Assembly (NCBI RefSeq): GCF_054482595.1
Contig: NZ_CM137008.1
Strand: one strand, 5' to 3'
Length of the DNA stretch: 64,000 nucleotides
Positions 1 through 7,947 of the stretch are shown here, piece after piece. A program made the translations under genes and the position numbers. Each line of letters begins with the position of its first letter. The stretch's first letter is position 1. The notes below the pieces were generated by a model. That model was given only the letters and a program-made list of their open reading frames with translations. It was not told where the DNA came from and searched no databases.

Positions 1-320
1 TACTGGAACAGACGGCCCAGGCTTACATTGAATCGCATGGTGCCATTGAACGTCATCTTGGGTGTAGTGACTTTTAACGTCAGGTGATGCATAAGGGCCT
101 TTCGCTGAGAGGCCCTGTTTACACAATTAAATAAATCGAGCCCGACCAACAATTTTGATGTTAACAGCAGGATTATTGAGGGGCAATCAATGTGTTCTTC
201 GGTAGCGATTACGGTAGTGAACGGACCTGCTGTCTGAATGGCATCGATCCGCAAGCGTATCGGCGCCATATTCTGAGCGTACTACTGAAATGGCTAATGG
301 CAGTAAAGAGAGACTTTACG
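1..320 (+). mobile_element. IS66-family element remnant: degraded 3' end of tnpC plus right terminus
   Basis: Translation of about 230-300 gives GIDPQAYRRHILSVL, resembling the IS66 TnpC C-terminal motif; upstream frames are broken; a terminal sequence similar to the other IS66 ends in the window lies near 314-322. Boundaries approximate. Confidence 0.5.
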
Positions 321-407
321 TATATTTGCATAAAGCAGGATTTTACGACTAGTCAACATTCTTTATAATTCTTCAGGTTCAGAGTATCTGACATATAGGG
401 TTATGTA

Positions 408-1124
408 TTGGGGAGACATTTAATGTTTGGCCATCTGTTACGATACTTTAGTTTCTGTAAAAAAGATTTATTAGTATTTCATCCTGAATCTGATTACTCA
501 GATAATTTACATAAAGCCTTCTCTTTTACAAAAAGGCTAGGATTTAATGAAGAATGGAATGGGGTCACAAAAAACAAAGAATATGATTATCAGGATGTCT
601 TCAGTCATGTCTGTCTGCAGTCTGGTGTGACAGACTTTTCCGCTTCAGCAGGACAATGCTTAAAGTGGAGTCATTATTTTCAGCCATATTTTGAGAATAT
701 CCTTGAATGTCGGGTATGGGTTACCGTTGGACAACTCTGGAAACAGGAACGATTTATTTACAATCCGTCAGTTGCGGATTTTCAGCGCTGGTCTGAAAAA
801 GGGATTCAGCCTGAAGATTTTAGACATCACTCGGGGTTTAACTTTCATGCGTGGTTGACGACGGAAAATGGTGTGATTGTGGATGTTTCCTTTATGAGTA
901 CGTTATCGCGGCGATTACCTGAACACCTGAGTGAAGTCAGTGGAAGTGTGATTATTGGCACGCCAGAGACGGTTCTTCCTGAGTATAAATATGTTCCCAT
1001 GATTGTCGGTCAGAGGATTGTTGAGAAAATAGAAAAACGCTCTTTCATTGGTTTTCTGGCGCACGACGATATTGATTTATATACAGTACCTGCAATCTTG
1101 GTTCCGGTATGGAAAGAATGTTAA
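408..1124 (+). CDS. hypothetical protein, 238 aa, no domain recognised
   Basis: Intact ORF preceded by an AT-rich region (about 320-407); no similarity to any family I can name; lies between an IS66 remnant and an IS21-like remnant. Confidence 0.4.
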   Translation: MGRHLMFGHLLRYFSFCKKDLLVFHPESDYSDNLHKAFSFTKRLGFNEEWNGVTKNKEYDYQDVFSHVCLQSGVTDFSASAGQCLKWSHYFQPYFENILECRVWVTVGQLWKQERFIYNPSVADFQRWSEKGIQPEDFRHHSGFNFHAWLTTENGVIVDVSFMSTLSRRLPEHLSEVSGSVIIGTPETVLPEYKYVPMIVGQRIVEKIEKRSFIGFLAHDDIDLYTVPAILVPVWKEC

Positions 1125-1443
1125 AGCACGGAATAACACTATGCACTTACCGCTTTCCGGAACTCAGCTTGTTACCTGAGCGGTCAACAGAGCAGTCTTT
1201 CAGTGTCTGCACTTGGTTGCCACTAAACCGGAGTCATTTATCAGAAGTATATGTTCATGGAAGGATATTGTCAGCGCCAGTGATATAAGACGGTAATGAG
1301 GATAGCCATCCCGCATGGGTTTCCTCAACACTGGTCACTGTGACAAGCGCACCATGATCGTCTTTGTATCGCTGATTGACTTTCGATAATAGAACATCTT
1401 CTGACATAAATTTTAGTACGGTAACAATTAACTAAATTTTCAT

Positions 1444-1800
1444 GTGGTAGCACTGAATCAGGAGACTGCGTTTCCTGATGTGTGCTTCTGCAGCCGTTAC
1501 CGGATACAGACTTCGATACCAGTTACTTCGACATCCGCCATGTGTCCTGGGACCCGCTATAACGAAGTTGGAGGTAATCAGTACAGCGTTCCCGAAATGC
1601 TGTGTGGTCAGCCAGTCTCGATACGAATATCGCTGAACGATGAGTTGCGGATCTACAGTAATGAGAAACTGGTGGCCTCACATCGCCTCTGCTCAGTGTC
1701 GTCTGGCTAGCAGATAGTACCGGAACCTCACGCCCCGCTCTGGCAGCAGATCAGTCAGGTGGAACATCGACCACTGAGTGCCTATGAGGAGCTGTTGTGA
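1444..1800 (+). pseudogene. IS21-family IstA transposase C-terminal fragment
   Basis: ORF 1444..1710 contains YSVP...RIYSNEKLVASH, typical of the IstA C-terminal region; downstream frame continues to ...RPLSAYEELL; N-terminal part absent. Confidence 0.4.
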
Positions 1801-1819: not shown

Positions 1820-3590
<1,771 letters not shown>

Positions 3591-5536: not shown

Positions 5537-6886
5537 ATGAGCATATTTTATAAAAAAAGCTGGTACAAGTGGATTGTATTGGTGGTTTGTATTCTTGCCT
5601 ATTCATCAGGAAACCTGGTGCGCTGGAATTATACGGGAATATCGCAATATCTTATTGGTGAATGGCACATTGGAAAAGAAGAATTGGGGATCCTTGGTTC
5701 CGCATTCTTTTATGCCTACGCGATTGGGCAAAGTCCCTGGGGAACACTTACCGATATATTAGGCGGACGCAGAGTTATTTCTATCGGTATTTTAATTACC
5801 GCTATTATGTTCTCTCTCTTTGCTTTTGCGGGTGGCTACCATGCCGCTATCATCATTCGAGTATTAATGGGATTTGTTGGGGCGGCAACATTTGTGCCTT
5901 GTATGGCGGTACTTTCTCGCTGGTTTAGTAAAAAGGAGCGAGGTATGGTGCTGAATATCTTCTCTGGCACAGGTGGTGGATTAGGTGAGCTGTGGTCCTT
6001 TTTATTAATGCCATTGATTTCATTATTTATGGTAGGCGGCGCTACCGTGCTTGGCCTGAGCTCCTGGCGTGCATCTACGCTAATTATGGCGTTTGTCACA
6101 CTGGCGATCATGATCCTCTGTTTTGTCGGTATGCGCTCCGACCCGTCGGAATTAGGTCTTCCGTCCGTTGTTGAACAGGAGACGCGTAAGCAGGCGAAAG
6201 AACATAGCTATGCCAGGACACTGCTTAATGCGTTGCGCGATCCGTGGTTCTGGGTCATTACATTCGCCTGGCAAGGTTTTACCGTTTCTCTGCGTCTGCT
6301 ACCGGCCTGGTTGCCTATCTATGCGGCAGCTTACTACAAACAGACACAGGGATTATCCAGCGTTGAGGCGATGGTCGCAGGAGGTATGATAGCATCAGTG
6401 TATGTTGCCGGACGTATTTTGGGAACGCCTGTCTTTGGCAAATTATCTGACTTTTTGCTTGTCAGTTATAACGTACCAAGAACATTGATTATTGCTTGCT
6501 TCCATATCTTTATTACCGTCTCAATGTTTGCTCTTAGCCATCAAATGCCTTCCACATTTTTATTTGCAGTTCTGGTTTTTGTGATTGGTGCCGCGATAAA
6601 TATGTTCCCTCTGGTTAATGCAGTCGTCGCAGAAATCTGGCCGGTTAAAACGGGGGGCGCGTTAATGGGGATGGTGAATACGGTTGGGCAGTTAATAGGT
6701 GCCTCAGCGTTGGCCTACAGTGGTTTTATGGCAGAAAAATTTTCCATAGCCGGAGCAGGATACAGTTTTGAGTATCGTGGCATTTGGTATTTGGCAATGA
6801 TATTCAGTTCAATATCTATCCTGGCGTCTCTGTTGGCGATGCATCGCGAAAAACAAAGTATTCGGGAAAATGCCTTGAGTCATTAA
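5537..6886 (+). CDS. MFS transporter
   Basis: About 449 aa from the ATG with upstream AAAGG RBS; roughly 12 predicted TM segments; the longer track ORF (5483) is an upstream extension. Stop is 5 bp before the citC ATG. Confidence 0.8.
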   Translation: MSIFYKKSWYKWIVLVVCILAYSSGNLVRWNYTGISQYLIGEWHIGKEELGILGSAFFYAYAIGQSPWGTLTDILGGRRVISIGILITAIMFSLFAFAGGYHAAIIIRVLMGFVGAATFVPCMAVLSRWFSKKERGMVLNIFSGTGGGLGELWSFLLMPLISLFMVGGATVLGLSSWRASTLIMAFVTLAIMILCFVGMRSDPSELGLPSVVEQETRKQAKEHSYARTLLNALRDPWFWVITFAWQGFTVSLRLLPAWLPIYAAAYYKQTQGLSSVEAMVAGGMIASVYVAGRILGTPVFGKLSDFLLVSYNVPRTLIIACFHIFITVSMFALSHQMPSTFLFAVLVFVIGAAINMFPLVNAVVAEIWPVKTGGALMGMVNTVGQLIGASALAYSGFMAEKFSIAGAGYSFEYRGIWYLAMIFSSISILASLLAMHREKQSIRENALSH

Positions 6887-6891
6887 GCATA

Positions 6892-7947
6892 ATGTTTAAT
6901 CATATATTTACCCAGGTCAAACGTTCAGAAAATAAAAAAATGGCGGAAATCGCCCAATTCCTGCATGAAAATGATTTGAGCGTTGACACCACTGTCGAAG
7001 TATTTATTACCGTAACCCGCGATGAAAAGCTTATCGCGTGCGGCGGAATTGCCGGAAATATTATTAAATGCGTTGCTATCAGTGAATCCGTTCGCGGTGA
7101 AGGACTGGCGCTGACATTAGCCACCGAACTGATAAACCTCGCCTATGAGCGGCACAGCACGCATCTGTTTATTTATACCAAAACCGAATACGAGGCGCTG
7201 TTCCGCCAGTGCGGTTTTTCCACGCTGACCAGCGTCCCCGGCGTGATGGTGCTGATGGAAAACAGCGCCACGCGACTGAAACGCTATGCCGAATCGCTGA
7301 AAAAATTTCGTCATCCAGGGAACAAGATTGGCTGCATTGTGATGAACGCCAATCCCTTTACGAATGGTCACCGTTATCTGATTCAACAGGCTGCGGCACA
7401 GTGCGACTGGTTGCATCTGTTTTTAGTCAAAGAAGATTCTTCACGCTTCCCCTATGAAGACCGGCTGGATCTGGTGTTAAAAGGCACCGCCGATATTCCA
7501 CGCCTGACCGTGCATCGCGGCTCCGAATACATCATCTCCCGCGCTACGTTCCCTTGCTACTTCATTAAAGAACAGAGCGTCATTAACCATTGTTACACCG
7601 AAATTGATCTGAAGATTTTCCGTCAGTACCTCGCTCCCGCGCTGGGTGTAACTCACCGCTTTGTCGGTACTGAACCCTTTTGTCGCGTTACCGCCCAGTA
7701 CAACCAGGATATGCGCTACTGGCTGGAAACGCCGACTATCTCCGCACCGCCCATCGAACTGGTTGAAATTGAGCGGCTGTGTTACCAGGAGATGCCGATA
7801 TCCGCTTCCCGGGTACGCCAACTGCTGGCGAAAAACGATCTCACGGCTATCGCGCCGCTGGTCCCTGCAGTCACGCTGCATTATTTGCAGAACCTGCTTG
7901 AGCACTCCCGCCAGGACGCGGCAGCTCGTCAAAAGACCCCCGCATGA
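6892..7947 (+). CDS. citC: [citrate (pro-3S)-lyase] ligase
   Basis: Sequence recognised as CitC (MFNHIFTQVKRSENKKMAEIAQFL..., NANPFTNGHRYL motif); the track ORF starting at 6784 is an in-frame extension overlapping the MFS gene. Confidence 0.9.
   Translation: MFNHIFTQVKRSENKKMAEIAQFLHENDLSVDTTVEVFITVTRDEKLIACGGIAGNIIKCVAISESVRGEGLALTLATELINLAYERHSTHLFIYTKTEYEALFRQCGFSTLTSVPGVMVLMENSATRLKRYAESLKKFRHPGNKIGCIVMNANPFTNGHRYLIQQAAAQCDWLHLFLVKEDSSRFPYEDRLDLVLKGTADIPRLTVHRGSEYIISRATFPCYFIKEQSVINHCYTEIDLKIFRQYLAPALGVTHRFVGTEPFCRVTAQYNQDMRYWLETPTISAPPIELVEIERLCYQEMPISASRVRQLLAKNDLTAIAPLVPAVTLHYLQNLLEHSRQDAAARQKTPA

What the first reader, a model, noticed from the sequence alone, without database searches (positions are those of the whole stretch)
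408..1124. Orphan 238 aa ORF with no recognisable family, between IS remnants
Seen in sequence: intact ORF preceded by an AT-rich region, flanked by an IS66 terminus and an IS21 fragment. I could not match the protein to any family from motifs; it is not obviously membrane-bound or secreted.
Basis: seen in the sequence. Interest (0 to 1): 0.35.

Follow-up and report, generated by a model that had tools for sequence, protein, structure and literature searches.

The report
Uncharacterised thiol enzyme in defence islands
The "orphan" ORF is a real, horizontally acquired E. coli gene for a soluble 233-aa enzyme with a papain/transglutaminase-like Cys-His-Asp active site; it belongs to a widespread protein family that no database describes and that usually sits beside anti-phage defence genes on mobile elements, so it is a reasonable but unproven candidate for a role in phage or mobile-element conflict.

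The parts
192..368 (+). Pseudogene remnant of the C-terminus of an IS66-family transposase (TnpC), directly upstream and always co-inherited with the gene in E. coli
   Evidence: Pfam DDE_Tnp_IS66_C E 7.9e-4. tblastn to TnpC aa 458-500/510 at 42% identity with a 9-aa deletion. PGAP pseudogene.
342..369 (+). Promoter-like site: -35 TTTACG (342-347), 16-nt spacer, -10 TATAAT (364-369)
   Evidence: Consensus scan, 10/12 matches. The sequence is conserved in the second E. coli island type. Function not shown.
411..416 (+). Shine-Dalgarno-like GGGGAG, 6 nt before ATG 423
   Evidence: Read from the sequence. Orthologues also carry SD-like motifs before the aligned ATG.
423..1124 (+). CDS of a 233-aa soluble protein (27 kDa, pI 5.9): new family of papain/transglutaminase-like Cys-His-Asp enzymes
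657..659 (+). Codon TGC for Cys79, the predicted nucleophile, within the SASAGQC motif
   Evidence: Invariant in 80/80 and in 38/38 full-length non-redundant locus groups. Lies at the N-terminus of helix 79-94 in the model.
846..848 (+). Codon CAT for His142, the predicted general base, within the NFHAWLT motif
   Evidence: Invariant in 80/80, with W144 and T146 also invariant. First residue of strand 142-147.
882..884 (+). Codon GAT for Asp154, the predicted third triad residue
   Evidence: Asp in 71 and Glu in 9 of 80 sequences. Lies on strand 152-154, next to the His strand.
1258..1407 (-). Truncated DUF4222 gene, convergent with the CDS; intact in other E. coli islands, so not required to keep the CDS intact
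   Evidence: Pfam DUF4222 E 2.7e-5. PGAP pseudogene here, intact in L002 and L003.
1444..1710 (+). IS21-type transposase fragment (Mu transposase C-terminal domain), the downstream IS remnant
   Evidence: Pfam Mu-transpos_C_2 E 4.4e-11. PGAP pseudogene 'Mu transposase domain-containing protein'.

Best explanation
Window 423..1124 encodes a real, horizontally acquired, cytoplasmic 233-aa enzyme. It belongs to a previously undescribed family within the papain/transglutaminase-like (clan CA) thiol-enzyme superfamily. Proposed mechanism: Cys79, at the N-terminus of the core helix, is activated by His142, which Asp154 orients. The thiolate attacks an amide (or thioester) carbonyl of a substrate, most likely a protein, to form an acyl-enzyme. 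That intermediate is resolved by water (peptide or isopeptide cleavage, or Gln deamidation) or by an amine (transamidation). Biologically the gene is a self-contained cargo module of defence islands and mobile elements. It has its own promoter-like site and SD and no obligatory partner in E. coli. Its most likely role is in phage or mobile-element conflict, by covalently modifying a protein of the invader or of the host. SHOWN: the gene is real and under purifying selection; the family is large; the Cys/His/acidic residues are invariant; the predicted fold and the placement of these residues are canonical for the clan; the gene is repeatedly close to defence and MGE genes. INFERRED: catalytic activity, a protein substrate, the type of chemistry, and any role in conflict.
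For: Real gene: dN/dS is 0.08 between the two E. coli alleles (12 synonymous vs 4 non-synonymous changes) and 0.08-0.18 between genera. Orthologues of 230-233 aa align end to end. The exact protein is seen on at least 1000 E. coli contigs.
Family: 387 clusters at E<=1e-3 and 114 at E<=1e-10.
Active site: C79, H142, W144, T146, G103 and P192 are invariant in 80 sequences with 18% mean column identity. Position 154 is D in 71 and E in 9. The triad is intact in 38/38 full-length non-redundant groups.
Fold: AF2 pLDDT 93.1, pTM 0.88, five concordant models. Cys lies at the N-terminus of helix 79-94; His and Asp lie on strands 142-147 and 152-154. That is the layout defining papain-like enzymes (PMC10318531).
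Foreign origin and cytoplasmic location: GC 39.6% vs 49% for the window; no hydrophobic segment.
Context: Old adjacent in three genera; PrrC with type I R-M in the E. coli nfeF island; a complete type III CBASS (cyclase, TRIP13, NucC) ending 4-43 bp upstream in three lineage members and 567 bp in a fourth; AAA ATPase + S8 subtilase upstream in three deeply diverged loci; TIR, nSTAND3 and SLATT; Abi_C and Imm52; type I R-M with GmrSD, and a Gabija-like pair; ICE or plasmid settings. Of 34 non-redundant groups with at least 5 kb of flank, 15 have a panel defence gene within 6 kb and 22 have a defence, MGE or toxin marker.
Confidence: 0.6

Rival explanations
1. Counter-defence or element-benefit factor: the enzyme is carried by islands, ICEs and plasmids to inactivate (cleave, deamidate or cross-link) a host or competitor immunity protein, or another host factor. 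It would help the element establish itself rather than protect the cell from phage.
For: Found in ICE or conjugative settings: Serratia ICE next to TraG_N/TraU; between the TrwC relaxase and the TrwB coupling protein; conjugative Pantoea plasmids; MobI next door; 648 bp from the anti-restriction gene ArdA in Providencia. It evolves faster than adjacent defence genes: 75% vs 92-99% for Old, and 74-87% vs 93-99% for NucC. That pattern fits an arms-race interface.
Against: It is co-oriented with, and tightly spaced behind, chromosomal defence operons (CBASS, Old, AAA+S8), which is an odd position for an inhibitor of defence. No relative was found in 50,697 phage genomes. There is no similarity to any known anti-defence protein.
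Confidence: 0.18
2. Accessory (regulatory, maturation or reset) subunit of neighbouring defence systems such as Old, CBASS-NucC or IetAS-like ATPase/subtilase pairs. The E. coli copy would be an orphaned remnant left after IS-mediated loss of its partner.
For: It is the last gene of a CBASS III cassette, starting 42 bp after the NucC stop in L027. Homology between the L027 and L028 loci ends 20 bp after its stop. The arrangement ATPase-subtilase-family gene is kept at deep divergence (ATPase 36%, subtilase 22-26%, family protein 25-28% identity). Old lies about 150 bp upstream in three genera. In E. coli an IS66 remnant sits exactly where an upstream partner would be. IetAS variants are known to recruit extra essential modules (PMC13069673).
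Against: The partners are mechanistically unrelated systems, and no single partner is shared across the family. The CBASS and Old cases are each one closely related cassette lineage. The E. coli gene stays under strong purifying selection without any partner (dN/dS 0.08) and has its own promoter-like site and SD. Canonical CBASS III, Old and IetAS work without such a gene (established knowledge; PMC13069673 for IetAS).
Confidence: 0.12
3. Exported toxin or effector (SseI/PMT-like deamidase, T6SS or CDI cargo) acting on another cell.
For: The best structural match is the T3SS effector SseI, and PMT is also on the list. CdiA (PT-VENN) lies upstream in Providencia and Collimonas. T6SS genes are nearby in Kluyvera and Klebsiella. 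Imm52 is adjacent in one locus.
Against: There is no signal peptide, translocation domain, PT-VENN, PAAR or Rhs linkage; the protein is just the catalytic domain plus short tails. No conserved adjacent immunity gene exists. The family occurs in soil and marine Pseudomonas, Paraburkholderia and Duganella without secretion-system linkage. The CdiA-like sequence near the E. coli copy is only a haemagglutinin-repeat remnant.
Confidence: 0.05
4. Small-molecule acyltransferase or amidase (NAT-like) that modifies a xenobiotic or metabolite, unrelated to conflict.
Against: NATs are the weaker structural matches and have three domains of about 280 aa. No metabolic operon is conserved around the gene. 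The dominant contexts are defence and MGE genes.
Confidence: 0.04
5. Spurious ORF, or a decaying fragment of a larger gene.
For: It lies among IS debris. Its GC is low. One E. coli allele is altered at both ends, and single cases of IS1 insertion or truncation exist.
Against: dN/dS is 0.08-0.18. Full-length homologues of the same size occur in many genera. The model is confident. 65 of 66 E. coli genomes that carry it have at least 80% of the query.
Confidence: 0.01

Closest known systems
SseI (SrfH) / Pasteurella multocida toxin C3 domain: Tox-PLDMTX glutamine deamidases of clan CA
   Different: No detectable sequence similarity. Cys-His spacing is 63 residues against 38 in SseI. There is no N-terminal translocation or targeting domain and no T3SS linkage. 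The family lives in defence islands of free-living Proteobacteria. Its activity is unknown.
Bacterial transglutaminase-like cysteine proteases (Pfam Transglut_core PF01841, e.g. TgpA; LapG/BTLCP; lasso-peptide B proteins for which Atu2299 2hly has been used as a modelling template)
   Different: Not significant by sequence: no Pfam hit for any of 80 members, and hhalign E 0.21, probability 0.3%. The protein lacks the membrane or periplasmic context of TgpA and LapG. It has a different insert between the Cys helix and the His strand (a beta-hairpin plus two helices, residues 98-133).
Protein-glutaminase (Chryseobacterium) and microbial protein deamidases
   Different: Protein-glutaminase is secreted as a pro-enzyme, whereas this protein has no signal or pro-region. 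There is no sequence similarity.
Protease or isopeptidase components of bacterial immune systems (e.g. the IetS subtilase of IetAS; regulatory peptidases of CBASS)
   Same: Sits in the same operon-like arrays: downstream of ATPase+subtilase pairs and of a type III CBASS. It is a predicted amide-bond enzyme in a defence context.
   Different: Unrelated fold and catalytic type (thiol papain-like, against serine subtilase or metallo-/JAB peptidases). Not part of the published definition of any of these systems (no PADLOC hit; PMC13069673 describes IetAS without it). It is solitary in E. coli.

Membership tests
Papain-like cysteine peptidase superfamily (clan CA; SCOP d.3 fold) | [quoted passage not shown] | tested here: met
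   C79 is invariant in 80/80 and is the first residue of helix 79-94 in the pLDDT-93 model.
Papain-like cysteine peptidase superfamily (clan CA; SCOP d.3 fold) | His on the following beta-strand and a polar or acidic third residue on the next strand, in the order Cys...His...Asp/Asn | tested here: met
   H142 is invariant and lies at the start of strand 142-147. Position 154 is D in 71 and E in 9 sequences and lies on strand 152-154.
Papain-like cysteine peptidase superfamily (clan CA; SCOP d.3 fold) | Structural superposition on solved members | tested here: met
Papain-like cysteine peptidase superfamily (clan CA; SCOP d.3 fold) | Triad residues within hydrogen-bonding geometry; thiol-dependent catalysis | not testable with these tools
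No biochemistry is available.
Pfam Transglut_core (PF01841) / transglutaminase-like cysteine proteases | Significant match to the family profile | tested here: not met
   No Pfam hit at E<=10 for the query or at E<=1 for 80 members. hhalign A2 vs a 24-sequence PF01841 alignment gives E 0.21, although the catalytic Cys columns align.
Tox-PLDMTX (SseI/PMT) deamidase toxins | Sequence relationship to SseI/PMT, and fusion to a delivery or translocation region | tested here: not met
   No hit to PDB sequences, including SseI and PMT. The protein is a stand-alone 233-aa domain with no signal or hydrophobic segment.
Known anti-phage defence systems (PADLOC-DB v2.0) | Match to a defence-protein model | tested here: not met
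   0 of 9 members hit at E<=1.
Defence-island gene (guilt by association, as used to nominate candidate defence families) | Recurrent proximity to known defence genes in diverse genomes | tested here: inconclusive
   15 of 34 well-flanked non-redundant groups have a verified defence gene within 6 kb, covering at least 7 system types. There is no background control, and the panel was derived from the same loci.
Defence-island gene (guilt by association, as used to nominate candidate defence families) | Protection against phage when expressed | not testable with these tools
   Needs experiments.
Toxin-antitoxin or effector-immunity pair | Conserved adjacent partner gene | tested here: not met
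   No neighbour is conserved across the E. coli clade. The convergent DUF4222 gene is truncated here while the CDS is intact. A divergent 91-aa partner exists only in one distant branch.

The most novel reading that the evidence does not exclude
The family is a new anti-phage immunity module based on a transglutaminase/papain-like thiol enzyme. It would work either as a single-gene defence system or as a portable add-on that plugs into unrelated effector systems (Old, CBASS-NucC, IetAS-like, Gabija-like). In either case it would act by covalently modifying (cleaving, deamidating or cross-linking) a phage or host protein.
Probability: 0.3. Interest if true: 0.7.

Novelty: new member of a known kind. 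Interest (0 to 1): 0.45.

Why it matters
A catalytically intact enzyme family with hundreds of sequence clusters has no entry in Pfam, NCBIfam, PADLOC or the PDB. It sits repeatedly beside Old, CBASS, IetAS-like, Gabija-like, R-M and TIR/STAND genes, which is the usual profile of an undiscovered conflict gene. It is small, soluble and solitary in E. coli, and three point mutants (C79A, H142A, D154A) are obvious. That makes it cheap to test against phage and conjugation panels. If it proves active, it would add thiol-amidase or transglutaminase chemistry to the known range of bacterial immunity or counter-immunity. It could also explain the extra gene at the end of a Pseudomonas type III CBASS cassette and of some ATPase-subtilase operons. 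If it proves inactive in such assays, it is still a new clan-CA family worth a database model.

Tried and rejected
- Curated libraries found nothing usable. Pfam, NCBIfam, PADLOC and PHROGs scans of the protein gave no credible hit, as did Pfam on 80 members and PADLOC and PHROGs on the 9-sequence alignment.
- HMM searches of PDB sequences with 9- and 80-sequence profiles gave only chance hits.
- The afdb50 fold library was unavailable.
- BFVD viral structures gave nothing significant; the best hit was an unnamed phage protein at E 0.04.
- tblastn against 50,697 phage genomes found no match.
- hhalign against a single TgpA sequence, and then against a 24-sequence Transglut_core alignment, was not significant.
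- The 80-sequence alignment was too divergent for the search for related loci, so I used the 9-sequence one.
- Toxin-immunity or TA pair: rejected. No neighbour is conserved, and the DUF4222 gene is truncated while the CDS is intact.
- CDI orphan module: rejected. The CdiA-like sequence in E. coli is only an FHA-repeat remnant, and the protein has no VENN or toxin-linker features.
- A common ~200-aa upstream partner: rejected. The upstream genes in different contexts are unrelated. One is a lipoprotein, judged from the LLTACS lipobox in its sequence.
- The Paraburkholderia divergent 91-aa ORF as a conserved partner: rejected as a spurious high-GC ORF.
- Fusion partners of longer members (P0113, P0166) gave no informative PDB hits.
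- Literature searches for the WP accessions and for TglA returned nothing.

Full report
**1. The observation.** The window matches the chromosome of E. coli O157:H16 strain Santai and several other E. coli genomes at 100%. The ORF listing reports an ORF at 408..1124 (+), 238 aa from a TTG. RefSeq/PGAP annotates the same frame from ATG 423 as a 233-aa "hypothetical protein", WP_000466879.1. Orthologues from five other genera all begin at the Met aligned with 423, each preceded by an SD-like motif. Here that motif is GGGGAG at 411-416, 6 nt upstream. The CDS is therefore 423..1124.

A promoter-like TTTACG-16-TATAAT lies at 342-369, within an AT-rich stretch (GC 0.32 for 301-600). Window 192-368 is a remnant of the last ~50 residues of an IS66-family TnpC (Pfam DDE_Tnp_IS66_C E 8e-4; tblastn to TnpC residues 458-500 of 510). 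Window 1444-1707 carries the Mu-transposase C-terminal domain typical of IS21 IstA (E 4e-11). A truncated DUF4222 gene lies between them on the minus strand, and an intact ISEc38 follows at 1855-3474.

**2. A real gene, not an orphan.** The gene is present in 66 of 5,426 complete E. coli genomes, always on the chromosome, as two alleles (at least 99% and about 97.6% nucleotide identity). The two alleles sit in different island types. One is the large mosaic island of this window. The other is an integrase-bounded island next to nfeF that carries a type I R-M locus with PrrC. The two island types share only a block of about 1.25-1.5 kb: IS66 remnant, gene, DUF4222.

Between the alleles there are 12 synonymous and 4 non-synonymous differences (dN/dS 0.08). 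Against Kluyvera, Klebsiella aerogenes and Providencia orthologues (62-69% amino-acid identity), dN/dS is 0.09-0.15; across all pairs between these genera it is 0.08-0.18. The exact protein occurs on at least 1000 contigs in public assemblies and is always named "hypothetical". Its GC is 39.6% (GC3 35.5%), against 49% for the window and 56% for neighbouring core-like genes. It has no hydrophobic segment. So it is a horizontally acquired, soluble, cytoplasmic protein.

An exhaustive profile search of 1.84 billion cluster representatives found 387 related clusters (E<=1e-3; 114 at E<=1e-10). Most are 180-250 aa. Targeted scans located members in Erwinia, Pluralibacter, Pseudomonas, Paraburkholderia, Duganella, Collimonas, Acinetobacter, Serratia and Pantoea plasmids, and in soil and marine metagenomes.

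**3. What the protein is.** No curated library recognises it. Pfam and NCBIfam give nothing at E<=10. None of 80 diverse members has a credible Pfam hit. PADLOC and PHROGs are negative, and so are profile searches of all PDB sequences.

The family alignment is nevertheless informative. At 18% mean column identity, C79, G103, H142, W144, T146 and P192 are invariant, and position 154 is Asp in 71 and Glu in 9 of 80 sequences. The triad is intact in all 38 full-length non-redundant locus groups.

With 9 sequences AlphaFold2 gave only pLDDT 71. With the 80-sequence alignment all five models converged at pLDDT about 93 and pTM 0.88. In that model C79 is the first residue of a long helix (79-94), H142 opens strand 142-147, and D154 lies on the adjacent strand 152-154. 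This is the layout that defines papain-like thiol enzymes: Cys at the helix N-terminus, His on beta-2, a polar residue on beta-3 (PMC10318531).

The motifs GQC and NFHAW, followed by an acidic residue about 12 positions later, resemble the transglutaminase core. A profile-profile comparison with a real PF01841 alignment was not significant (E 0.21). Its one local alignment did put C79 on the transglutaminase catalytic Cys and G103 on the invariant V-x-G-Y glycine. I therefore place the protein in the papain/transglutaminase-like clan at the fold level, as a new family, and not in any existing Pfam family.

**4. Genomic context.** I assembled 86 loci, which collapse to 45 non-redundant groups at 90% identity. 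No neighbour is conserved across the family or across the E. coli clade. A divergent 91-aa gene accompanies only one distant branch. What recurs is the type of neighbourhood:
- **Old:** a P2-type Old nuclease lies about 150 bp upstream in Kluyvera and K. aerogenes and 431 bp upstream in Erwinia psidii, next to an integrase (PADLOC Old 3.6e-77).
- **Type III CBASS:** a complete operon (cyclase 3.9e-144, HORMA-sized gene, TRIP13 6e-136, NucC 1.8e-96) ends 4-43 bp upstream in three of its lineage members and 567 bp upstream in the marine one. In two Pseudomonas strains (L027, L028) the 92.7%-identical block stops 20 bp after the family gene's stop codon.
- **AAA ATPase + S8 subtilase:** this pair lies directly upstream in three loci. 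The arrangement persists although the ATPases are only 36%, the subtilases 22-26% and the family proteins 25-28% identical. It is the architecture of IetAS, a serine-protease toxin with an ATPase antitoxin and an unknown anti-phage mechanism (PMC13069673).
- **Other defence genes:** TIR, nSTAND3, DUF4062-TPR and SLATT in Paraburkholderia; Abi_C; type I R-M with GmrSD and an AAA_15/21 ATPase; a Gabija-like ATPase and UvrD-helicase pair; type I R-M with PrrC in the E. coli nfeF island.
- **MGE and toxin settings:** a Serratia ICE; the region between a TrwC relaxase and a TrwB coupling protein; MobI; conjugative Pantoea plasmids; UmuC/UmuD; ArdA and CdiA in Providencia; CdiA in Collimonas; Imm52.

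In a tally of the 34 groups with at least 5 kb of flank, 15 have a verified defence gene within 6 kb and 22 have a defence, MGE or toxin marker. This is a count, not a test: the panel came from these same loci and no background was computed. The CBASS and Old associations are each a single closely related cassette lineage. In both, the family gene is the fastest-diverging member: 74-87% against 93-99% for NucC, and 75% against 92-99% for Old.

**5. How it most likely works.** Shown: the gene is real, conserved, cytoplasmic and foreign; the Cys/His/acidic residues are invariant; the predicted fold places them as in clan-CA enzymes; and the gene travels with defence and mobile-element genes.

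Inferred: Cys79, activated by His142 (oriented by Asp154), attacks an amide carbonyl to form a thioester intermediate. Water then resolves it (proteolysis, isopeptide cleavage or Gln deamidation), or an amine does (transamidation). The nearest structural neighbours are protein-directed deamidases and proteases, so a protein substrate is the best guess. Acyl transfer of the NAT type is less likely.

The gene is solitary in E. coli, has its own promoter-like site and SD, and stays under purifying selection without a partner. I therefore read it as a self-contained module. Its neighbourhoods make a role in phage or mobile-element conflict the most likely biology. I give about 0.85 to the enzyme-class assignment, about 0.55 to a conflict role, and 0.6 to the composite statement.

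The rivals are a counter-defence factor (0.18), an accessory subunit of the adjacent systems that became orphaned in E. coli (0.12), an exported toxin (0.05), a small-molecule acyltransferase (0.04) and a spurious ORF (0.01).

**6. Comparison with the known, and novelty.** It works like a clan-CA thiol amidase or transferase. It is not a member of Transglut_core, Tox-PLDMTX, BTLCP or any PADLOC family, because the sequence-membership tests were run and not met. No paper mentions its accessions, and the 2023 census of papain-like families was built on Pfam families, which do not include it (PMC10318531). I rate it a new member (a new family) of a known kind.

Interest is moderate at 0.45. Uncharacterised defence-island families are common. 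This one, however, is large, catalytically intact, linked to several well-studied systems, and very easy to test.

Noticed in passing
L003 8656-9890 (equivalent to window ~361-366); L003 10048-10722: In one common E. coli allele (WP_000233940.1, 224 aa, seen on 854 contigs) an IS3-family element is inserted between the IS66 remnant and the gene, at or in the -10 TATAAT of the promoter-like site. That allele also has a different N-terminus and a shortened C-terminus (indels), and dN/dS rises to about 0.4. This may be the beginning of decay, or a change of promoter.
   Followed up: partly
L027 1275-6656 and L028 1271-6656 (also L053, L054, L060, L064): A Pseudomonas-type type III CBASS cassette (two divergent upstream genes of 296 and 107 aa that look like CapP/CapH by size and position, then CD-NTase, HORMA, TRIP13, NucC) carries the family gene as a fifth co-oriented gene. 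It starts 42 bp after NucC, and inter-strain homology ends 20 bp after its stop. The CapP/CapH identity was not tested.
   Followed up: partly
L066 100-5001; L084, L085, L086: A four-gene cluster: S8 subtilase (~742 aa), a 294-aa gene, a 314-aa gene, then the family gene. On the short contigs L084-L086 the subtilase-sized gene appears both before and after the family gene, which suggests a tandem or circular arrangement. The 294- and 314-aa proteins have no Pfam hit on record.
   Followed up: no
L017 7607-7882 (-) and L020 7622-7900 (-): A divergently transcribed ~91-aa gene (faint MogR-like DNA-binding hit) is conserved upstream of the short-form family members in Acinetobacter gyllenbergii and in a metagenomic phage-like block (phmmer about 1e-16). 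It is absent from every other locus examined. It may be a dedicated regulator in that branch.
   Followed up: partly
L004/L009/L030 and L027/L028/L053/L060: In both the Old and the CBASS cassettes the family gene diverges much faster than its neighbours (75% vs 92-99% for Old; 74-87% vs 93-99% for NucC). This could reflect an arms-race interface, gene replacement within the cassette, or weaker constraint.
   Followed up: partly
L002 12842-13153; L006 1-9555; L032 161-3028: CdiA/filamentous-haemagglutinin sequence recurs near the gene. There is a full CdiA with PT-VENN upstream in Providencia and in Collimonas, and an FHA-repeat remnant 1.8 kb downstream in the E. coli ST131 nfeF island. This is probably co-residence in variable islands, but it occurs in three separate lineages.
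   Followed up: partly
L022 2833-9494: A 497-aa family member with a ~300-aa C-terminal extension of unknown nature lies directly after three tandem tyrosine-recombinase genes (a recombinase-in-trio-like element). The contig comes from a highly fragmented assembly.
   Followed up: no
window ~22187-24076; ~57944-59209; ~59673-60259; ~61979-62731: The rest of the window is a large mosaic island. It carries a citrate-lyase/acnB block, many IS66, IS3 and ISL3 remnants, a 630-aa gene annotated 'enterotoxin', a second tyrosine integrase, a ParE/ParD pair, and a CbtA/CbeA-RadC-antirestriction module near the far end (coordinates converted from RefSeq annotation).
   Followed up: no
L033 (IMG/VR UViG_2724679140_000011) 5579-6964: The E. 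coli block holding the gene (98% protein identity) is included in a 52-kb contig that IMG/VR classifies as viral, although no relative was found in 50,697 curated phage genomes. It is probably an integrated island scored as a provirus.
   Followed up: no
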